Positions 1,656 through 56,129 of a DNA stretch of 64,000 nucleotides are shown in pieces. Below the pieces are notes generated by a model. That model made no database searches, was not told the DNA's origin, and worked only from the letters and a program-made list of their open reading frames with translations. The position numbers and the translations under genes are program-made. Origin of the DNA: a virus; the IMG/VR virus record IMGVR_UViG_3300047321_000170, positions 18,937-82,936 of that record, one strand, 5' to 3'. Within the stretch, counting starts at the first letter, position 1. Each line of letters starts with the position of its first letter.

Positions 1656-1678
1656 GCTTTGCTGTGCGAAGAAACTCT

Positions 1679-1707
1679 TTGTGTTGGGTTTACGCGGCCA
1701 ATAAAAT
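1679..1707 (+). promoter_or_regulatory. Putative sigma70-like promoter for lysis genes
   Basis: TTGTGT-N17-TAAAAT. Confidence 0.45.
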
Positions 1708-1710
1708 TTC

Positions 1711-1736
1711 GGCACTCACCACCACCACAGAGTGCC
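1711..1736 (+). promoter_or_regulatory. CCACCAC-loop leader hairpin upstream of endolysin
   Basis: GGCACTC-ACCACCACCACA-GAGTGCC, 4 nt before ATG 1741. Confidence 0.75.
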
Positions 1737-1740
1737 CCTC

Positions 1741-2271
1741 ATGTCCGTCACATCCGATCAGCTGCGGAAGATCTGGACGCATGCTCCTTCAGTGCGCTGC
1801 GTGTCGTTCGCGCCGCTGCTGAGCAGCGCAATGCAGCGCTTTGGCATCGACACCCCCGAAGAGATCGTCGAGTTCCTGGCTCAAGTCTCGCACGAGTCTG
1901 GCGAAGGCCAGTGGCTCAAGGAGCTGGCCAGCGGCAAGGCCTACGAAGGCCGTAAGGATCTCGGCAACACGCAACCGGGCTGGGGTGTTCTCTACAAAGG
2001 CCGCGGCTTGATCCAATGCACGGGATACACGAACTACGTGCTTATGGGCCATCTGTTGGGCCTAGACCTGATCAACCATCCGGAGCTGCTGGAAGAGCCC
2101 GCTAACGCGTGCTTGAGCGCCGCAGCATTCTGGTGGAACCACCATCTCGATAACCTCGCGTTGAAGAAGGACTTCGTCGGTGTGACGAAGGTCATCAACG
2201 GCGGAACGAACGGCCTCAAGGAGCGTGAAGAGTATCTGGCGCTCGCCCGCGCCGCTCTGGGAGTGAACTGA
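1741..2271 (+). CDS. Endolysin, glycoside hydrolase family 19
   Basis: FLAQVSHES, YKGRGLIQCTG, SAAAFW, TKVINGG motifs. Confidence 0.92.
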   Translation: MSVTSDQLRKIWTHAPSVRCVSFAPLLSSAMQRFGIDTPEEIVEFLAQVSHESGEGQWLKELASGKAYEGRKDLGNTQPGWGVLYKGRGLIQCTGYTNYVLMGHLLGLDLINHPELLEEPANACLSAAAFWWNHHLDNLALKKDFVGVTKVINGGTNGLKEREEYLALARAALGVN

Positions 2272-2681
2272 TGCCACGATCCAGCGACTTCATCGCAAGA
2301 CTAGGCTTCACGACCTACACACTGGTCGTGTGTCTCACTTCCATCTTCTCTAACAACTGGGTGGCGGTTGTGAGTCGGTATAGCGGAGGGGCGGTCTTCT
2401 CGACGCTCCTCCTGCTGACCGGCACGTTGCTGGTGATCGACCTGGTCATCAACGACCTCATGCCCGAGCGGTTCGTTTTCCAATGGGGTTTGAAGTGGCG
2501 TCACTGGGTCTACCCCTGCGTGTCATTTGCCTTCACGTCGCTCCTTTTTATCGCTGAACAAACCTATAAGAGCGTCCCTCTCGACGCCCTCGCGGTCTAC
2601 GGCTCGATGGCCCTTATCGGCGTCGTGCTGAGTTTCCGCAATCTCTTTTCTGAACGGGGTCGAGTGTGCAAAGAACACTAA
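2271..2681 (+). CDS. Membrane protein, holin/antiholin candidate
   Basis: About 4 hydrophobic helices; located in lysis cassette. Confidence 0.65.
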   Translation: MPRSSDFIARLGFTTYTLVVCLTSIFSNNWVAVVSRYSGGAVFSTLLLLTGTLLVIDLVINDLMPERFVFQWGLKWRHWVYPCVSFAFTSLLFIAEQTYKSVPLDALAVYGSMALIGVVLSFRNLFSERGRVCKEH

Positions 2682-3067
2682 GAATCTGGGCGCTCTTGCT
2701 GGCGCTCACCTGGTCCGCAGCGGCCTATGCAGCAACCCATGCACAAGTCGCATTCGGTTCTGACCTGGCCCGCATCCCGATGCTGGCCTATGTCATCACG
2801 ATCGTGCTGAGCGGCATCGGTGGCGCCGCTTCCACGCTTCAGAAGCTGTCGCGCGCCGCAGACCTGTCGCGCTGGCAGCTGGAGGTCGTGAAAGACACCG
2901 TGTCGGCAATCGTCGCGGGCCTGCTCGTGTTCTTCCTGTGCGAGTCGTTCGAGTGGGATTCAGCGCGCGAGGCCTTCGCGATCACGATCGCCGGCTACGG
3001 AAACTCGAAGCTGATCGACCTGATGTTCCGCAACTTCGTGAAGCAACTGCCGGAGCCGAAGCAATGA
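2666..3067 (+). CDS. Putative holin
   Basis: Multiple TM helices; between endolysin and spanins. Confidence 0.7.
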   Translation: MQRTLRIWALLLALTWSAAAYAATHAQVAFGSDLARIPMLAYVITIVLSGIGGAASTLQKLSRAADLSRWQLEVVKDTVSAIVAGLLVFFLCESFEWDSAREAFAITIAGYGNSKLIDLMFRNFVKQLPEPKQ

Positions 3068-3600
3068 GCCTCCAATTCACAGCCATTTGTGCCGCCGTCG
3101 CCGCGTTGGTTGCGGCAGGCGGCAGCTGGTACGTGACCCGCGATGTCTACAAAGCCGACATCGCAGTCATGCAACGCGACGCGGCGACTGCGGCGGAACA
3201 CGCGCAGCAGCATCTCGACAGCGCGCTGGCTTTCGCGCAGACGCAGTCTCAACTCGATCTCAACGCGATCGACCAGAACTACAGGACGAAGATCAATGAA
3301 AAGGATTCTCAGCATCAGCTCGATGTCGCTGCTGTGCGCAACGGCACTCTCCGCTTGCGTGACAGCGCCGCAACCTGCCGCGCCGCAGATGAACAAGTTC
3401 CAACTGGCACCAGTGTCAGCGGAGCTGATGGAGCCGGTGGTGCCGAACTATCGCCTGCGGCTACTGAGTTTCTTCTCGGAGAAGCCGACCGAGCAGACGG
3501 CCAAGCCCTTCGCGTTACAGCCCTCCAGCAAGTAGTCGCTGATGACCGCAAGGTCATCGACGAGCTGGTGCGCAGCTTGATGGGGGTAGCTGCAAAGTGA
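3064..3600 (+). CDS. i-spanin (Rz-like)
   Basis: N-terminal TM, coiled coil, C-terminal EADRAD..ALQ; nested lipoprotein gene. Confidence 0.85.
   Translation: MSLQFTAICAAVAALVAAGGSWYVTRDVYKADIAVMQRDAATAAEHAQQHLDSALAFAQTQSQLDLNAIDQNYRTKINEKDSQHQLDVAAVRNGTLRLRDSAATCRAADEQVPTGTSVSGADGAGGAELSPAATEFLLGEADRADGQALRVTALQQVVADDRKVIDELVRSLMGVAAK
3296..3535 (+). CDS. o-spanin (Rz1-like lipoprotein), nested in +1 frame
   Basis: MKRILSISSMSLLCATALSAC lipobox and Pro-rich mature region inside Rz. Confidence 0.85.
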   Translation: MKRILSISSMSLLCATALSACVTAPQPAAPQMNKFQLAPVSAELMEPVVPNYRLRLLSFFSEKPTEQTAKPFALQPSSK

Positions 3601-11583: not shown

Positions 11584-11787
11584 ATGGAGCAAACGATGAC
11601 ACCCACCACTGTCACCACGCCCACCCCGAAGCTGTACCGAATTCAAGCCGTCATGCAGCAGCTCAGCGTCTCGCGCGCGACCGTCTATCGTCTCGTGAAC
11701 AACGGCAAGCTGAAGCTGGTCAAGATCGGCGAACGCTCCAGCGGCATCACCGCGGAGAGCGTTGACGCTCTGGTAGCCGGCGCCTAA
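11584..11787 (+). CDS. xis: AlpA-family excisionase
   Basis: LYRIQAVMQQLSVSRATVYRLV HTH; near att site and integrase. Confidence 0.85.
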   Translation: MEQTMTPTTVTTPTPKLYRIQAVMQQLSVSRATVYRLVNNGKLKLVKIGERSSGITAESVDALVAGA

Positions 11788-12101
11788 CCGGACTCCTCTC
11801 TCGGGGGCAGTTTCTCCGCTGCCCCAAGCGGGGCCACTCTCTGTGGCCCCGATCCCAAGAATCCCCGCCTCGACATCTCCTGCATCATCAGCACACGCAG
11901 CTTTTCCAGTGCGACCAGCTGGCCACCCACGTCAACTTCCCAGCAACGCTGCACGACAACCCGATAGCTTTCGACCTCGTCGAACAGCTCGCGCATTCGC
12001 ACGACCTCCAGCACGAGCGCGCGGATCTCGTCTTGAGGGTACGTCCGATACAGGCGTCGCAAGTCCGTCATCGTCGGCGTTCCGAAATCTGGCAATCGCA
12101 T
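11784..12101 (-). CDS. LexA-regulated hypothetical protein
   Basis: 105-aa ORF with SD AAGGA; SOS box immediately upstream. Confidence 0.75.
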   Translation of the reverse strand: MRLPDFGTPTMTDLRRLYRTYPQDEIRALVLEVVRMRELFDEVESYRVVVQRCWEVDVGGQLVALEKLRVLMMQEMSRRGFLGSGPQRVAPLGAAEKLPPREESG

Positions 12102-12116
12102 GGCACTTCCTTAATA

Positions 12117-12132
12117 CTGTACGGATATACAG
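12117..12132. promoter_or_regulatory. LexA (SOS) box
   Basis: TA-CTGT-ACGGATAT-ACAG-TA. Confidence 0.85.
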
Positions 12133-12176
12133 TATCACGAACGCGCGCGGATGCCAGTACACTCGGGCGATTTTGC

Positions 12177-12496: not shown

Positions 12497-13780
12497 ATGG
12501 CGCGTAAAACACATCTTCTGGACGACATCCAGATCCGGCACTGGATCGCCAAGGGCGAGCCGGTCGCCAAGTCAGATGGTGAAGGCCTGACCTTTACCCT
12601 CTCCTCAGCCGGCACCGCGAGCTGGATCTTGCGCTACCGCCGAGGCGGCGGTCGCCGTAAGGAAATCACGATCGGCAACTATCCGGACATGACGCTCGCC
12701 GCGGCCCGAAAGGCTGCTCGTGCCCACCGCGTCGCGGTCGACAATGGGATAGACCCCGCAGCTGAGAAGAAGGTCGAGAAGGCGCGCTCCGTGCTCGCGT
12801 GGACCGTCAACGAGCTGTGCGACGACTACGAGGAGAAGCACCTGGTGGCGCCCCTCTCGAAGTCCACGATCTATTACCGGAAGTGGGACATCAAGAACAT
12901 CATCCGGCCTAAGCTGGGTTCGCTCGAAGTTCGCAAGATCCTGCCTGCTGACATCGTCTACATTCTGGAGAACAGCGGGCGCACCTGGACGGTGAATAAG
13001 CGAATCCTTACATCTATGAAGCAGCTCTTTGGCCATGCGCTAGGGAAGCGGATCATCGACGTGAACCCCGCCTTCGGTATCGAGATGAAGGCACTGTTCG
13101 GCAAACGCCCGCCCGTTCGCAAACGCCTGATGCTCACCGAGGGCGAGCTTCGCAAACTGCTGCCTGGCATTGACAAGAAGATCGGCCGCGAGAACGGCCT
13201 CATGCTGCGCGTGCTGCTGGCTACCTGCGTGCGAACGAACGAGCTGGTCATGGCCCGCAAGCAGTTCATCGATCTGAAGCGCGGCTCCTGGTTCGTACAC
13301 GACGAGTCGGTCAAGACTCGTCAAGGCTTCACCGTCCCGCTGGTTCCTGTCGTCATTGGCTGGATGAAAGAGCTGTACGCCCTGTCCGGAGACTCCGACT
13401 GGCTGTTGCCAGCTCGCAGCAACAAACGCCGCAACCGGCTTGGTGAAACTCATATCGGCAATACCACGCTGTGGGCCGCGATCACGCGAGCGTTCCAATC
13501 TGAGAAGCTGGAGATGCGTCGCTTCACGCCGCACGATACGCGCAGCACCGCCAAAAGCCATATGCGGAATCTGGGCATCTCGAACGAAGTCAGTGAGCTT
13601 GCGCTTAACCACAAGCTCAAAGGTATGGAAGGGATCTATGACGTGCGAGAAGAGATCCCCGAGCGACGCGAGGCGATGGAGATATGGGCGCAGTTCATTG
13701 CAGACTGCTGCGACGGTAAGGAACCGGAAACGGGCCGACCAACGAACGTGGTCGCATTGAGAAGGAAGGCTGCGGCTTGA
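12497..13780 (+). CDS. int: Tyrosine integrase (P4-like, arm-binding N-terminal domain)
   Basis: DGEGL..W..RY..IGNYP..LA.AR N-terminus; catalytic R, HDTR, LNH, Y. Confidence 0.95.
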   Translation: MARKTHLLDDIQIRHWIAKGEPVAKSDGEGLTFTLSSAGTASWILRYRRGGGRRKEITIGNYPDMTLAAARKAARAHRVAVDNGIDPAAEKKVEKARSVLAWTVNELCDDYEEKHLVAPLSKSTIYYRKWDIKNIIRPKLGSLEVRKILPADIVYILENSGRTWTVNKRILTSMKQLFGHALGKRIIDVNPAFGIEMKALFGKRPPVRKRLMLTEGELRKLLPGIDKKIGRENGLMLRVLLATCVRTNELVMARKQFIDLKRGSWFVHDESVKTRQGFTVPLVPVVIGWMKELYALSGDSDWLLPARSNKRRNRLGETHIGNTTLWAAITRAFQSEKLEMRRFTPHDTRSTAKSHMRNLGISNEVSELALNHKLKGMEGIYDVREEIPERREAMEIWAQFIADCCDGKEPETGRPTNVVALRRKAAA

Positions 13781-38688: not shown

Positions 38689-39369
38689 CTATTGTTGATA
38701 GACCAGGTTGTCGTCGCCGAGATACAGGTCAACATTGCCCGCGCTCTTCGCCGCCGCAGTGAGCGCGTCGCGCACGTCCTGCGGCAGCTCGTTGCGGTCC
38801 CAGAAGCCGGTGCCGTGGCCGGCGCGTGTCAGCCAGAAGTCGTGACCGGCGCGCTCGGCCGTGTAGCCGTTGACTTGCAGCGCGGCGAGCAGTTGCGGCT
38901 CTGCGAAGTCGCAGAAGTCCTTGCACTCTTCGCGAAACGTGGTACGCGTCTCGTCGGCCGGTTCGTACTCGTCGAGACTGACAGTTGTCTCGCCATCGTC
39001 ATCAACGACGACATCTGTGCTCGACCACAGCGCGGCGGTCTCGTAGCCCTGGACGAAGTCGTCGAACCACAGCTCACGCGGGGTCTCGACGATCTCGACG
39101 TTCGGGTACTCGGCGCGGACAGCCTCCAGAGCCTCCCAGCGGTCCTTGGCACGCAGGAAGAACTCCACGTCACCCTCAACCTCGACAGCCCGCCACAGCG
39201 GCTCTCCTGCGCCCCAGTACGCCCCTCCCGCGTCATAGTCGCCGTCGACGAACGGGATATGGTGGACGACGAGCTTGATCGCGCCTTCGCGATCCCCGTC
39301 AGTGTGCGTGTCGGGGCGACCCATTGGGGCGCCGCGTGCGCTGCCTACTTCGGTGAGTGCTCGGATCAT
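38689..39369 (-). CDS. Acidic early hypothetical protein
   Basis: GAPMGR, YD.GGAYWG, GHDFWLTR.GHG.GFWD motifs. Confidence 0.75.
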   Translation of the reverse strand: MIRALTEVGSARGAPMGRPDTHTDGDREGAIKLVVHHIPFVDGDYDAGGAYWGAGEPLWRAVEVEGDVEFFLRAKDRWEALEAVRAEYPNVEIVETPRELWFDDFVQGYETAALWSSTDVVVDDDGETTVSLDEYEPADETRTTFREECKDFCDFAEPQLLAALQVNGYTAERAGHDFWLTRAGHGTGFWDRNELPQDVRDALTAAAKSAGNVDLYLGDDNLVYQQ

Positions 39370-52697: not shown

Positions 52698-53261
52698 ATG
52701 TCCCAAGATAAATTCACCCGAGACCAATTCACCGTCGAGCTTGCGAGAGAGTGGTTTGCCTACGATGCTGAAGCCGGCGTAGTAATCAGGATCAAGAATC
52801 CTAAGAAGGGTCCGCAGACGGCCGGCACGCGAGCCGGAGCGCCTCATAAAGCGAGTGGCATGCGCCAGGTCATCTTTCGTGGCGTGAGCGTCTATGAGCA
52901 GCAGCTCGTCTGGGCGCTATGCAAGGGAGCGTGGCCGACATCCAAGCTCAGGTTCAAAGACGGCGACCCTCTCAACTGTCGAATTGAGAACTTGTGTGGG
53001 GCAACGAATACAGCAGATGATTACAAGGCGTTACAGTCCAAGACTGTCAGGGAATCCTTACCCCTCTCTGGCGTAATTCCTACCTCAAGTGGGAAGTTCA
53101 AGGCTCAAATTTTCCGAGAGCGGATGATCTATCTAGGCACGTTCGATACTCCTGAGAGTGCAAGTGCGGCATACCTGACAGCCAAGTCAGTCCTTCATGA
53201 TCCGCTTAATAGAGGGAAATCGACAGTTGAGCTACTTGAGGGACTACCAAAACTGGGTTAA
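52698..53261 (+). CDS. HNH-AP2 protein with degenerate HNH active site
   Basis: G.WP..(LRF)KDGD.LNCRIENL; AP2-like GV..GKFKAQI..YLGTFDT.E.AS.AY. Confidence 0.8.
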   Translation: MSQDKFTRDQFTVELAREWFAYDAEAGVVIRIKNPKKGPQTAGTRAGAPHKASGMRQVIFRGVSVYEQQLVWALCKGAWPTSKLRFKDGDPLNCRIENLCGATNTADDYKALQSKTVRESLPLSGVIPTSSGKFKAQIFRERMIYLGTFDTPESASAAYLTAKSVLHDPLNRGKSTVELLEGLPKLG

Positions 53262-53318: not shown

Positions 53319-53347
53319 TTGCAAACGCACCTCAAGATGTTTATAGT
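53319..53347 (+). promoter_or_regulatory. sigma70 promoter for predicted sRNA
   Basis: TTGCAA-N17-TATAGT. Confidence 0.75.
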
Positions 53348-53351
53348 TCCG

Positions 53352-53520
53352 TCTCAAGTGCTGCGTGATCTGTGGTGGTGAGCGCAGCAGCAGAGATGTC
53401 ATGTCTCTGTCACGACTGAGGGGTGGCCAGCTCCAAAGTCAACCGTCCTAGACGGTAGTTTTGATCCATTGTAGAAGCTCAAAAGCCCCACCGACTAGCT
53501 ATCGGCGGGGCTTTTCCTTT
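53352..53520 (+). ncRNA. Predicted structured antisense sRNA with GUGGUGGUG loop
   Basis: Promoter and terminator with no convincing ORF between them; hairpins at 53360-53388, 53391-53409 and 53442-53456; complementary to repeated leader motifs. Confidence 0.7.
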
Positions 53521-53522
53521 TT
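53481..53522 (+). terminator. Intrinsic terminator (possibly bidirectional)
   Basis: AAAAGCCCCACCGA-CTAGCTA-TCGGCGGGGCTTTT followed by CCTTTTT. Confidence 0.85.
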
Positions 53523-53550
53523 CAGCCTGAGAATCTAGGGCTGAACTCCA

Positions 53551-53578
53551 AGACTACTGTGTTTACATACAGCGTCAA
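53551..53578 (-). promoter_or_regulatory. Leftward sigma70 promoter with LexA box as spacer
   Basis: Minus strand TTGACG-CTGTATGTAAACACAG-TAGTCT. Confidence 0.75.
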
Positions 53579-53609
53579 TACTTGTACTCCTTGTTGAACA
53601 CCTGCAGGT

Positions 53610-56129
53610 CTAGGCGGTGACGGGCTGCTCTCCAGAATGGTCCTTCGTCGTACTCGACGTACTCCCCGCTCCCACAAGTGTGAGGTTCTTGTACTCGACA
53701 GACTGGCCTCCCATCGGGGTTTGCTCGATCGTAAGTTTGAATCCGAACTCGGTAGCCAATTCCCTCATCTTTGCTCTGAACTGAGTCGATCCAACAGGCC
53801 GCGCAGATCCCGGCCCGACGCAGAAGGACCAATATGCCTGATAGAGCTTCGTTTCCGGTACGGATGTGGGGGTCGAAGTCTTCGACCCAGCGGACTCCTC
53901 TTGTTGGAGAGCGAGAATCCGCACTTTCCCGCTCTCCATGAGAAAAAAACGTACGCTGTTGTTCAGGTTCGCTACTTCACGCATGATCTGGGAGTGCGAA
54001 GTCGGGATCGTGAACTCGTTCGTGAGCTTCAGTCGTGACATCGCCTGCACTGCCCACGCAACGATGGCCTCACGCTCTTCAACCACGATGGCATCACCGA
54101 GATCCAGCCGACGCTCCGACGCTTTCACCGGACGGTTAAATTGGAGTACGAGCCATCTCCGATTGAACCCTTCCGATGTATCTTCCGTGCGCGGGTAGTG
54201 ATTCGACGCAAACCAATGCGTACAGATAGGGTTGAACCGGAAAATTTGCCCGCCCTTCATCTGTCCGGACATCTCAGCGCCGTCGATGATGTCCTTGAAC
54301 TTCTGGCCATCGACAGTCTTCTTCTCGCTCAGCTCACCAGCCACGTTGATGATCTTTTCGAACATTTGCGTCGGCAAAAACTTGTCGCTCCACTCGTTAG
54401 GAGGCACCGCGGAACGAGCTGTGTCTGGCACAAGCGCCTGTGCGATCTTCAACAGCTGTGATTTCCCTGACTTCGGAGCGCCTTGCAGCAAAATCGCACG
54501 TTGATAACGCGGTCCAAGACCGAAAAGCGTAACTGCCAAGGCTTCTTGGAGAGCCTGAATCTTGGCCTCGCAATCCTCGTCTTCACCCCAACTCTTCCTC
54601 AGAAAATCGAAAAACATCGTCGAATGACCAGCCGCTTCCGGCAAATAGCGGAACGGAAGCGTGTACGTCATGCCGTAACCCTGGTCATGCGGCAGCAATT
54701 TGAGGTCTTCCGTGAGAAAACCGTTCGCGAAGTTGACGCCCTTAACATCAATCGACTTAATTCCCTGTGTCATGAGCATTTTCATGACTTGAGAGACGCC
54801 GCGAATGTCGTTGAACTTCTTGCAGGCCGCGAGATGCCCATAATCAGAGCTGATCCGGGACATGATGTATTGGTCGTCCACCTTCTCCCAATGTGAACCG
54901 GCCCATTTCCACACGAACCCATTATGAGCGCGCACGGCATACAGCTGCTCCAGGTCTTTAATCACCGCGCGAGCGATCTCAGACTGGTCCTGGCCTTTGA
55001 TCTCGCCCATGCGCAGCTCTTTGATACGCGCTTTTAGGCTGGAAACACGAATTCCCATGCCAGCAGTCTGCGCGATGAACTCAAGCAGCCGGTCCTCTTC
55101 CAGCTTATTCAAAGTCGATGTGGTCGCAACCTTTTGCAACGCCTTGTCGACCGATGTTGCTCGACCCGGTGACTCCTTCGGATAGCGCTCAAACTCGTCA
55201 ATCAGGAACTGTTTCAAGTCCTCGAACGACCACTCCTCCTGCTCCTTCGTGATCTCAAGCCCCCACGACTCCTTCTCGGCGTCCGTCATGCCCTCGTCCC
55301 AGCCGGTCGGCAGCACCTTCTGCTTCTCGAACACGTCTCGCTGGAGGAACTTCAGCATGTTGCGGATGTGCTTATCCACATCGATAGGGTCGCCCGCGAC
55401 GTTCTCCACGAAGTCAGCTGCGTACGCCTGAAGCATGCCGATGGCTTCCTTCAATGTGCGATCGCCGCGGATCACCGCGTAAGCGAACAGTCCTGCGCGC
55501 TCAGTCAGGCTCGTGTCGCGCGAGCCCGCCGAAGCATAGTCCACCACGCGCGTCCAACCAGAGTGCGACAGCTCGACGCCGGCCTCGGTGAGCGCGGCGC
55601 GCAGCAGAACCTCGATGTTCTCGTCGAGCGGCTGGAGATTCTTGTGAACGTCAACCAGGTCGCAGTTAGCCTGGTACGGCAGCTGCGTGTCCGGATGGAT
55701 CGACGGCGGCAGCACCGACTGCGTGCGAGCCGACAGCATTTCGCAGATCGTCTGCCCGCTGGTGTTCTTGATCCGGAAGGTCTTCAGGCCCGAGTAGCGA
55801 TACGCGAGCATGACGCCCTTCTTGCCGATGCGGCGCCAAGGAGAAACCGGCAACAGCTGCTCGATCACGTTCATCAACCGCACGTCTTCCGTGTCGATGT
55901 CCATCATCACGATGCCCGACTGCGGGCCGAGCACGATGCCGATGTTCGAGTCGCGGCACTGCTCAATCCAGCTGGCCTGTTGCTCAGGCTCGACCGGATG
56001 ATCGAAGTAACGCGACCAGTCGTTCGGGATAGGCTTCTTTTCGCGCGGGTACAGCGGAATCACTGGCAGGCCGGCCGCGTAGTAGCGCGGCGCGGTCTCA
56101 GCGAAGATGGGGAGGCGTTCGATCTTCAT
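53610..56129 (-). CDS. Bifunctional primase-polymerase / D5-like SF3 helicase
   Basis: PVIPL..KKP, NIGI, DID, PPSIHP; GAPKSGKS Walker A, ASN, RRW. Confidence 0.9.
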   Translation of the reverse strand: MKIERLPIFAETAPRYYAAGLPVIPLYPREKKPIPNDWSRYFDHPVEPEQQASWIEQCRDSNIGIVLGPQSGIVMMDIDTEDVRLMNVIEQLLPVSPWRRIGKKGVMLAYRYSGLKTFRIKNTSGQTICEMLSARTQSVLPPSIHPDTQLPYQANCDLVDVHKNLQPLDENIEVLLRAALTEAGVELSHSGWTRVVDYASAGSRDTSLTERAGLFAYAVIRGDRTLKEAIGMLQAYAADFVENVAGDPIDVDKHIRNMLKFLQRDVFEKQKVLPTGWDEGMTDAEKESWGLEITKEQEEWSFEDLKQFLIDEFERYPKESPGRATSVDKALQKVATTSTLNKLEEDRLLEFIAQTAGMGIRVSSLKARIKELRMGEIKGQDQSEIARAVIKDLEQLYAVRAHNGFVWKWAGSHWEKVDDQYIMSRISSDYGHLAACKKFNDIRGVSQVMKMLMTQGIKSIDVKGVNFANGFLTEDLKLLPHDQGYGMTYTLPFRYLPEAAGHSTMFFDFLRKSWGEDEDCEAKIQALQEALAVTLFGLGPRYQRAILLQGAPKSGKSQLLKIAQALVPDTARSAVPPNEWSDKFLPTQMFEKIINVAGELSEKKTVDGQKFKDIIDGAEMSGQMKGGQIFRFNPICTHWFASNHYPRTEDTSEGFNRRWLVLQFNRPVKASERRLDLGDAIVVEEREAIVAWAVQAMSRLKLTNEFTIPTSHSQIMREVANLNNSVRFFLMESGKVRILALQQEESAGSKTSTPTSVPETKLYQAYWSFCVGPGSARPVGSTQFRAKMRELATEFGFKLTIEQTPMGGQSVEYKNLTLVGAGSTSSTTKDHSGEQPVTA

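What the first reader, a model, noticed from the sequence alone, without database searches (positions are those of the whole stretch)
53551..53578. SOS-controlled promoter firing antisense into the sRNA: possible RNA-level induction switch
Minus strand reads TTGACG-[CTGTATGTAAACACAG]-TAGTCT, so the 16-bp spacer is exactly a CTGT-N8-ACAG LexA box. No substantial gene lies downstream. The transcript would begin near 53544, form TTCAGCC/GGCTGAA, and overlap the sRNA terminator, or the whole sRNA if it reads through the 4-U minus-side terminator. Known: some temperate phages couple induction to host LexA through antirepressors (186 Tum, N15 AntC). Inference: DNA damage produces an RNA antagonist of the sRNA. 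Alternatively, a read-through RNA carrying CUCACCACCACAGAUCA and GGAUCAAAAC could act as a decoy for a motif-binding factor.
Basis: partly seen in the sequence, partly recalled or inferred. Interest (0 to 1): 0.82.

Follow-up and report, generated by a model that had tools for sequence, protein, structure and literature searches.

The report
LexA-box promoter facing a phage sRNA
A temperate soil-bacterium phage carries a binding site for the host's DNA-damage repressor LexA in a weak promoter that points at a small-RNA gene, but related phages do not show that this promoter matters for waking the phage.

Summary
The sequence is as described: TTGACG-[CTGTATGTAAACACAG]-TAGTCT on the minus strand at 53578-53551. 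As a LexA site it is not chance. The 83-kb genome holds two sites matching the 20-nt LexA consensus at 15 or more positions, and none of 300 shuffles gave one. The 16-mer is identical in the only two relatives that share a 46-bp insert, although both flanks diverge. The phage is temperate (P4-type integrase; provirus relatives, one in Burkholderia paludis). That host's own lexA carries two CTGT-N8-ACAG boxes. A LexA box serving as the 16-bp promoter spacer recurs in other phages. Against the proposed switch: the -35 is the last codon plus stop of a conserved -1-frame primase ORF. The -10 is lost in both relatives, and nine other distinct relatives lack the insert. The transcript would be about 65 nt, carry no ORF, and overlap only the sRNA terminator. 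No RNA data exist. A stronger LexA box (12115-12134) sits in front of a 105-aa gene by attP; four of four plasmid homologues examined carry such a box. Verdict: a probable real SOS operator and weak promoter, accessory or orphan. The scan has noted LexA-gated phage promoters facing antisense RNAs on other DNA. Seen in passing: a conserved -1 frameshift signal in the primase gene.

The parts
53557..53572 (.). LexA-type box core, CTGT-N8-ACAG (CTGTATGTAAACACAG on the minus strand)
   Evidence: It is identical in L018 and L019 while the flanks diverge.
53555..53574 (.). 20-bp extended LexA site, 15 of 20 to the consensus; 17 of 20 in L018 and 16 of 20 in L019
   Evidence: 0 of 300 shuffles gave any site at 15/20 or better. 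The relatives' 20-mers are read.
53573..53578 (-). -35-like hexamer TTGACG, 5 of 6; it contains the TGA stop (53577-53575) of the -1-frame primase ORF
53551..53556 (-). -10-like hexamer TAGTCT, 3 of 6 (T1, A2, T6)
   Evidence: It is below the threshold of the scan. It is TAGTTC in L018 and CAGTTC in L019.
53527..53572 (.). 46-bp lineage-specific insert carrying the box, present only in the window, L018 and L019
   Evidence: Alignment A1. It has no other copy in the genome.
53521..53545 (-). 5' hairpin of the predicted leftward transcript (GUUCAGCC/GGCUGAAC); found in the window only
   Evidence: It is not conserved in L018 or L019.
53481..53515 (.). Shared two-way terminator hairpin, with a long U tail on the + side and only 4 U on the - side
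   Evidence: The relatives are read.
53319..53347 (+). Conserved promoter of the sRNA, TTGCAA-17-TATAGT
   Evidence: The hexamers are kept in the relatives.
53354..53522 (+). Roughly 170-nt sRNA carrying GUGGUGGUG; conserved in all temperate relatives
   Evidence: Fold -69.2 kcal/mol, z -4.3. Conservation is seen. There is no Rfam family.
53575..53949 (-). -1-frame ORF running from the slippery T_TTT_TTT (53949-53943) to its TGA stop; a candidate programmed frameshift product of the primase gene
53610..56129 (-). Primase-helicase (Prim-Pol, D5_N, DUF5906), 839 aa in the 0 frame
52698..53261 (+). HNH endonuclease gene upstream of the sRNA
12115..12134 (.). Second and stronger LexA box, TACTGT-N8-ACAGTA, 17 of 20, directly upstream of a 105-aa ORF
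   Evidence: Homologues elsewhere also carry a box.
11784..12101 (-). 105-aa SOS-box-associated ORF next to attP; no Pfam or PHROG family
12497..13780 (+). P4-type tyrosine integrase
   Evidence: Arm-DNA-bind_3 at 6e-23 and Phage_integrase at 1.2e-16.

Best explanation
The 16-mer is a genuine operator for the host SOS repressor LexA. It sits on a 46-bp insert that one sub-lineage of these temperate (Para)burkholderia-type phages acquired between the end of the primase gene and the terminator shared with the sRNA gene. In this phage the box forms the 16-bp spacer of a weak sigma-70-type promoter that points left. That much is shown by sequence and comparison. The rest is inferred. In a lysogen, LexA would occupy the box. 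After DNA damage, LexA cleavage would free the promoter. The promoter would then make an ORF-less RNA of about 60-65 nt that ends at the shared terminator, and so is complementary to the 3' hairpin of the sRNA. A fraction would read through the 4-U terminator and be antisense to the whole sRNA. This is most likely an accessory, lineage-specific SOS input on sRNA level or on convergent transcription, not the core induction switch of the phage family.
For: - Statistics: two sites at 15/20 or better in 83 kb, against 0 of 300 shuffles with one.
- Conservation: all 16 box columns are identical in the window, L018 and L019. The 20-column blocks on either side have 13 and 4 identical columns. In the relatives the flanking bases are closer to the LexA consensus (TACTGT...ACAGTA in L018).
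- Host: a relative lies in a 290-kb contig of Burkholderia paludis MSh1. That genome's lexA gene has two CTGT-N8-ACAG boxes just before its ATG. The genome holds 15 ACTGT-N8-ACAG matches on each strand, many with A/T-rich spacers; the reversed-pattern control gave 8 on one strand and 1 on the other.
- Lifestyle: the phage has an integrase, and 6 of the 10 relatives' records are classed provirus.
- Design: the pattern TTGA-NN-box-TAGT gave 54 IMG/VR stretches. Of these, 18 have an 8/8 A/T spacer. Seven of those read TTGACA-box-TAGTAT and lie 2-9 nt before a 62-68-aa ORF. Six read TTGATA-box-TAGTTT, a -10 that also matches at only 3 of 6.
- A Burkholderia genome has TTGATA-box-TAGTTA 18 nt before a 114-aa ORF beside a CI-like gene.
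- The predicted transcript folds into two strong hairpins.
- No Peptidase_S24 or HTH_3 repressor was detected in the phage, so an indirect LexA route to induction is plausible.
Against: - The promoter scores only 8 of 12 and is not called by the scan.
- Its -35 is explained by coding: TAT TGA is the end of the -1 ORF.
- The -10 loses its final T in L018 and is 1 of 6 in L019.
- Only 2 of 13 readable related loci (11 distinct sequences) have the insert, yet all keep the sRNA.
- No gene lies downstream.
- The overlap with the sRNA is only its terminator unless the transcript reads through.
- The first hairpin is not conserved.
- L018 and L019 are close to each other, so the conservation amounts to roughly one independent comparison.
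- There is no expression or binding evidence of any kind.
Confidence: 0.4

Rival explanations
1. Orphan or decaying SOS promoter. The insert is a remnant of an SOS-controlled cassette of the kind that drives small genes in other prophages. Its gene is gone. LexA may still bind, but nothing useful is transcribed.
For: The same box-as-spacer design normally sits 2-100 nt before a small ORF; here there is none. The -10 has decayed in L018 and L019. The site between primase and sRNA is a hot spot for insertions: L012 has an unrelated extra hairpin there, and JWF and 2-1 have HNH genes there. Most relatives do without the insert.
Against: The 16-mer is perfectly kept while everything around it drifts, which suggests selection on LexA binding itself. 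In the window the -10 keeps T1, A2 and T6.
Confidence: 0.3
2. The SOS-induced RNA, short or read-through, neutralises the sRNA or titrates a factor that binds the CUCACCACCAC and GGAUCAAAAC motifs, and this is how DNA damage induces the prophage.
For: The sRNA is conserved, with its promoter and terminator, in all temperate relatives. Its motifs were not found in the roughly 8 kb held of JWF, 2-1 or L020/L021. CACCACCAC occurs at 20 places in the genome, always on the locally transcribed strand. No classical repressor domain was found. The minus-side terminator has only 4 U.
Against: Nine other distinct relatives keep the sRNA and the motif system without any box here, so the family's induction cannot depend on it. 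What the sRNA does is unknown. The closest precedent, lambda OOP, was reported to have at most a minor role in SOS induction (passage in PMC2327240).
Confidence: 0.1
3. Chance palindrome next to a coding-derived TTGA, with no LexA binding in vivo.
For: The bare core count is within chance. The most frequent other occurrence of the exact 16-mer, 45 of the 80 stored loci, lies inside an annotated cI-like CDS of Salmonella phage ST64B and so is not evidently an operator. The location is 3' of an operon.
Against: 0 of 300 shuffles gave a 15/20 site, and the genome has two. The box is conserved as an island. The identical 16-mer lies intergenically next to an integrase gene in a Burkholderia genome.
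Confidence: 0.1
4. The palindrome serves something other than promoter control. It could be a weak 3'-UTR hairpin of the primase mRNA, a roadblock that limits read-through between the convergent units, or a site for a phage protein.
For: It lies 2 nt after a stop codon and 35 nt before the terminator. It can form a 5-6-bp stem. The minus-side terminators of the relatives have poor U tails, so primase transcripts probably run into the sRNA gene anyway.
Against: The stem is weak and has an 8-nt loop. The half-sites are exactly those of LexA. There are no similar repeats elsewhere in the genome.
Confidence: 0.1

Closest known systems
Lambda pO / OOP antisense RNA
   Same: It is a short terminated RNA from a temperate phage, transcribed convergently to a neighbouring unit and overlapping that unit's 3' end. 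A LexA-binding sequence lies in the promoter region (passage in PMC5869508, which cites Lewis et al. 1994). It acts through RNase III on the paired RNA (passage in PMC2327240).
   Different: OOP targets an mRNA (cII); here the partner would be an sRNA, and only its terminator. OOP is conserved in lambdoid phages; this promoter is confined to three genomes. Nothing here has been shown experimentally.
LexA-controlled antirepressor modules (186 Tum, N15 AntC, Gifsy antirepressors; recalled, not checked in a paper)
   Same: Host LexA, not repressor self-cleavage, senses damage for a temperate phage, with a LexA box overlapping a phage promoter. Small ORFs beside CI-like genes with this type of box occur in Burkholderia-type prophages.
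   Different: No protein is encoded downstream of the 53557 box. The 105-aa ORF behind the other box (12115) matches no antirepressor family.
SOS-induced type I toxin / sRNA pairs of E. coli (tisB-istR-1, symE-symR, dinQ-agrB; recalled, with tisAB seen only in the listing)
   Same: A LexA-box promoter faces or overlaps a constitutively made small RNA.
   Different: Those SOS transcripts encode small toxins. Here no conserved ORF exists: the mini-ORFs of 9, 15 and 13 codons differ among the three genomes (read).
Box-as-spacer SOS promoters of other phages (TTGACA-box-TAGTAT and TTGATA-box-TAGTTT groups found here)
   Same: The geometry is identical: the -35 ends and the -10 begins with the TA flanks of the 20-bp LexA site, and the spacer is 16 bp.
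   Different: Those precede small protein genes. They are sequence groups found here, not described systems, and their function is inferred.

Membership tests
LexA (SOS) box of Beta/Gammaproteobacteria | CTGT-N8-ACAG core with an A/T-rich spacer and TA flanks | tested here: met
   The core is perfect, the spacer is 6/8 A/T, and the match to the recalled consensus is 15/20 (17/20 in L018). 0 of 300 shuffles gave such a site.
LexA (SOS) box of Beta/Gammaproteobacteria | The host lineage's LexA uses this motif | tested here: met
   The B. paludis lexA gene has two such boxes before its ATG. The window phage's own host is unknown; Paraburkholderia is suggested by the homologues.
LexA (SOS) box of Beta/Gammaproteobacteria | LexA binds and represses | not testable with these tools
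   This needs a gel shift, ChIP or a reporter.
Sigma-70 promoter | -35 and -10 hexamers at 16-18 bp, with at least 4 of 6 matches in each | tested here: not met
   The -35 is 5/6 and the -10 is 3/6, so it is not called. The same scan also finds no promoter at the well-placed 12115 box, so it has low sensitivity here.
Sigma-70 promoter | Hexamers conserved in relatives | tested here: not met
   L018 has TTGATA/TAGTTC and L019 has CTGACT/CAGTTC.
Lambda pO/OOP-type SOS-gated antisense RNA | Short terminated transcript overlapping the 3' end of a convergent unit | tested here: inconclusive
   The geometry and fold fit, but no transcript data exist.
SOS-induced type I toxin-antitoxin | Conserved small toxin ORF behind the LexA-box promoter | tested here: not met
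   There is no conserved ORF in the three genomes.
LexA-controlled antirepressor module | Protein gene downstream of the box | tested here: not met
   Only the terminator and the antisense of the sRNA lie downstream.

The most novel reading that the evidence does not exclude
In a clade of temperate phages with no recognisable CI or S24 repressor, the conserved sRNA pairs with the CACCACCAC words in front of about 20 phage genes and is the immunity or global regulator. In this sub-lineage a LexA-gated convergent promoter is the damage sensor that removes the sRNA. Prophage induction would then run LexA, then RNA, then RNA, with no antirepressor protein.
Probability: 0.08. Interest if true: 0.85.

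Novelty: new variant of a known kind. Interest (0 to 1): 0.42.

Why it matters
If the promoter is active, this would be an SOS input acting on a phage regulatory RNA rather than on a repressor protein, in a phage group whose lysogeny control is unknown. That can be tested directly with a lysogen and mitomycin C. If the promoter is only an orphan operator, the finding is ordinary: LexA boxes in prophages are common. The more solid gains are contextual:
- These JWF-like phages are temperate in Burkholderia-type hosts.
- They carry a genuine SOS-controlled small gene beside attP.
- Their primase gene carries a conserved -1 frameshift signal.

Tried and rejected
**Leads that gave nothing**
- Rfam gave no family at gathering score in the window. 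Only sub-threshold chance-level hits appeared around the site.
- The exact 16-mer occurs in 92 IMG/VR stretches. Forty-five of the 80 stored loci are one Salmonella ST64B-type locus in which the 16-mer lies inside the annotated cI-like CDS sb38. I therefore dropped this as evidence of operator use.
- I looked for more relatives and found none new. The sRNA-motif pattern gave 11 stretches in IMG/VR, all on contigs already held. Two metagenome scans gave 0. Among 400 Burkholderiaceae genomes, 2 matched: B. paludis, already held, and one marginal 31-nt hit (E 6.4e-4) in G126; one further genome was not scored. The plasmid collection gave no match.
- The insert has no copy elsewhere in the genome. 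It has no meaningful match among phage records; all hits had E of 3 or more.
- I searched 95 Burkholderia genomes for a source of the insert. Only 16-26-nt chance-level hits appeared, apart from two LexA-box matches. The full TTGA-box-TAGT pattern occurs in 1 of the 95.
- Alternative promoters on either strand around the box score only 7-8 of 12 and are not shared by the three genomes.
- A plus-strand promoter that uses TTTACA inside the box has no usable -10 in any of the three (read).

**Expression**
- No RNA holder was listed for this stretch.
- The runs I laid are DNA contigs only. One 151-nt contig of run X4 covers the box, with a T inserted behind 53572 as in L019; this is too thin to count.

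- Structure and complex tools were not used, because the question concerns DNA and RNA.
- Supplementary files of papers were not consulted.

Full report
**What is there**

On the minus strand the window reads TTGACG (53578-53573), CTGTATGTAAACACAG (53572-53557) and TAGTCT (53556-53551). Next come the hairpin GUUCAGCC...GGCUGAAC and a strong hairpin with a 4-U tail. The 69 nt from 53546 to 53478 fold at -36.6 kcal/mol, z -6.1. The site lies between two convergent units.
- On the plus strand are an HNH endonuclease gene (52698-53261) and an sRNA of about 170 nt. The sRNA has a promoter, TTGCAA-17-TATAGT (53319-53347), which the scan calls, and a long U tail.
- On the minus strand is the primase-helicase gene (53610-56129; Prim-Pol, D5_N, DUF5906).

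**Where it comes from**

- The window is bases 18937-82936 of an 82,936-bp virus record with terminal repeats, from a rhizosphere metagenome.
- Its nearest named relatives are Achromobacter phages JWF and 2-1, at about 73% identity over the primase gene.
- Sixteen IMG/VR loci encode relatives of the primase. Six of the ten related records I examined are classed provirus.
- One relative lies inside a 290-kb contig of Burkholderia paludis MSh1.
- The window phage has a P4-type tyrosine integrase (12497-13780).
- Six-frame searches found no Peptidase_S24 and no HTH_3 domain in the genome. Ten small early ORFs I scanned had no Pfam family.

**Is the box more than chance?**

- The bare core is not: 3 matches against 1.04 expected, and 6 of 100 shuffles reach 3.
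- The 20-mer is. It matches TACTGTATATATATACAGTA, the LexA consensus as I recall it, at 15 of 20 positions, with 6 of 8 A/T in the spacer.
- The whole genome has just two sites at 15/20 or better, and 0 of 300 dinucleotide shuffles had one.
- The third core match, at 39015, has a G+C-rich spacer and scores 8/20.

**Does the host read this box?**

- In B. paludis MSh1 the lexA gene (TIGR00498, 216 bits) is preceded by two CTGT-N8-ACAG boxes just before its ATG.
- That genome holds 15 ACTGT-N8-ACAG matches on each strand, many with A/T-rich spacers. The reversed-pattern control gave 8 on one strand and 1 on the other.
- A Burkholderia genome (G257) has the identical 16-mer in an intergenic spot beside an integrase gene.
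- Another (G451) has TTGATA-box-TAGTTA 18 nt before a 114-aa ORF next to a CI-like gene.

**Conservation**

- Of the 16 related loci, 13 can be read past the primase stop. These are 11 distinct sequences: L007 reads the same as L008, and L009 the same as L010. L013 is cut short. L020 and L021 have unrelated DNA there.
- Only L018 and L019, the closest relatives (91-92% primase identity), have the box.
- The nine-sequence alignment A1 used the window plus 8 of the 13 loci. It shows a 46-bp insert (53527-53572) in these three genomes only. L012 has an unrelated hairpin at the same point.
- In a three-way alignment all 16 box columns are identical. The neighbouring 20-column blocks have 13 identical columns (upstream) and 4 (downstream).
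- The flanking bases in the relatives fit LexA better than those in the window: TACTGT...ACAGTA in L018.
- L018 and L019 are close to each other, so this amounts to about one independent comparison.

**The promoter**

- By hexamers it is weak: 8 of 12, and not called by the scan.
- The -35 is accounted for by coding. TAT TGA is the last codon plus stop of a conserved -1-frame ORF.
- In L018 the hexamers are TTGATA and TAGTTC. In L019 they are CTGACT and CAGTTC, so the -10 is lost.
- Two points soften this. First, the same scan finds no promoter at the well-placed 12115 box either.
- Second, the design recurs. The pattern TTGA-NN-CTGT-N8-ACAG-TAGT gave 54 IMG/VR stretches, of which 18 have an all-A/T spacer.
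  - Seven of these, in contigs of 59-66% G+C, read TTGACA-box-TAGTAT and lie 2-9 nt before a 62-68-aa ORF.
  - Six read TTGATA-box-TAGTTT. That -10 matches at the same three positions as the window's TAGTCT. This group occurs in Klebsiella temperate phages.
Elsewhere, however, it drives a small gene. Here nothing is encoded: the mini-ORFs of 9, 15 and 13 codons differ among the three genomes.

**The stronger SOS site**

- At 12115-12134, TACTGTACGGATATACAGTA (17/20) lies directly upstream of a Shine-Dalgarno sequence and the ATG of a 105-aa ORF (11784-12101, minus strand) next to attP.
- The ORF has no Pfam or PHROG family.
- It has homologues in Paraburkholderia and in 98 plasmid records: Pseudomonas 78, Burkholderia 11, Paraburkholderia 6 and Caballeronia 3.
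- All four homologues I examined, out of the 98, have a LexA-type box just upstream. Two are perfect and two have one core mismatch.
- Related proviruses G007 and G010 have a similar box at the same prophage end, between an SRAP-like gene and a 131-aa ORF.
- This phage therefore does answer to LexA, but most clearly at this other site.

**What the 53557 site most likely does**

- I take it as a real LexA operator (about 0.7) on a weak promoter that may be active.
- De-repression would give an RNA of about 60-65 nt complementary to the sRNA terminator, with some read-through.
- The closest precedent is lambda pO/OOP. Passages I read say that a LexA-binding sequence lies within oop-pO (PMC5869508). 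They also say that OOP promotes RNase III decay of cII mRNA but has at most a minor role after SOS induction (PMC2327240).
- Nine other distinct relatives keep the sRNA without this insert, so it cannot be the family's induction switch.
- The sRNA itself looks important:
  - It is conserved, with promoter and terminator, in all temperate relatives.
  - Its motifs were not found in the roughly 8 kb held of JWF, 2-1 or L020/L021.
  - Its GUGGUGGUG is complementary to CACCACCAC, which occurs at 20 places, all on the locally transcribed strand. This partly confirms notes e1-6113084 and e1-6113076.
- What the sRNA does is unknown, and so the bold reading stays open at low odds.

**Seen in passing: the primase gene carries the marks of programmed -1 frameshifting**

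- A T_TTT_TTT run in X_XXY_YYZ phase (53949-53943) is present in 12 of 16 sequences, including JWF, 2-1 and a 59%-identical relative. The other 4 have G_TTT_TTT.
- The -1 frame is open from just before the run for 127-163 codons in all 16.
- Its last 30 or so residues, with the conserved pattern GPFWR..(x3)..RL..(x5)..N.E..Y, are better kept than the 0-frame tail.
- Five nt after the run, two interleaved stems could form an H-type pseudoknot. In that structure 93.9% of cells are paired, against 35-58% when the partners are slid. There is little covariation, because the stretch is nearly invariant.
- Three-way identity is highest exactly over this dual-coded stretch.
- A search for papers holding 'programmed ribosomal frameshifting', 'primase', 'bacteriophage' and 'slippery' listed two papers. 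Judged from the listing only, they appear unrelated.

**Limits**

- There are no RNA data and no binding data.
- Only three genomes carry the box.
- The host of the window phage is itself not identified.
- The statements on 186 Tum, N15 AntC, the Gifsy antirepressors and the type I toxin pairs are recalled, not checked.

Noticed in passing
window 53575-53949 (minus strand), within the primase gene 53610-56129: There is a conserved -1 frameshift signature. A slippery T_TTT_TTT lies at 53949-53943 in the correct phase in 12 of 16 sequences, with G_TTT_TTT in the other 4. The -1 frame is open for 127-163 codons in all 16, including JWF. After a 5-nt spacer there is a possible H-type pseudoknot. 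The C-terminal tail of the -1 product is conserved. Three-way nucleotide identity peaks over the dual-coded stretch.
   Followed up: partly
window 11784-12134: A strong LexA box (TACTGT-N8-ACAGTA, 17/20) lies directly before a 105-aa ORF beside attP. The ORF family has no Pfam or PHROG name. It occurs on 98 plasmid records of Pseudomonas, Burkholderia, Paraburkholderia and Caballeronia. Four of the four homologues examined have a LexA-type box upstream. It is probably an undescribed SOS-regulated small protein of mobile elements.
   Followed up: partly
window 53319-53522 and genome-wide: The roughly 170-nt sRNA is conserved, with promoter and terminator, in all temperate relatives. Its motifs were not found in the 8 kb held of Achromobacter phages JWF and 2-1. 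CACCACCAC, the complement of the sRNA's GUGGUGGUG, occurs at 20 places in the genome, all on the locally transcribed strand.
   Followed up: partly
whole genome G000: This is a temperate phage with integrase and a large replication module (family A DNA polymerase, ligase, SbcCD-like proteins, dNMP kinase, MazG). No Peptidase_S24 or HTH_3 hit appears in six frames, so how lysogeny is maintained is unknown.
   Followed up: partly
L121 (G010) about 1087-2223 and L122 (G007) about 794-1928: In related proviruses a LexA box at the prophage end lies between a 224-aa SRAP-like gene (starting MCTNY after the first start codon) and a 131-132-aa ORF. The C-terminal part of that ORF resembles the N-terminal motif of the window's 105-aa ORF.
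   Followed up: no
L153, L154, L161, L162, L163, L165, L166: Seven high-G+C viral contigs share the perfect SOS promoter TTGACA-[CTGTTTAAATATACAG]-TAGTAT. A 62-68-aa ORF follows 2-9 nt later, apparently leaderless. No match was found among deposited phage records for one of them.
   Followed up: no
L102, L103, L085, L144, L148: Small 95-115-aa ORFs, sharing the motif C-R-x-G-D followed by V-x-R-S, lie just behind LexA boxes and next to CI-like HTH genes in high-G+C proviruses and Burkholderia genomes. They are probably LexA-controlled antirepressors.
   Followed up: no
L012 6505-6580; L001 (JWF) 1669-3080: The spot between the primase stop and the shared terminator takes different inserts in different relatives. 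L012 has an extra terminator-like hairpin there, and JWF and 2-1 have two HNH endonuclease genes. It looks like an insertion hot spot.
   Followed up: no
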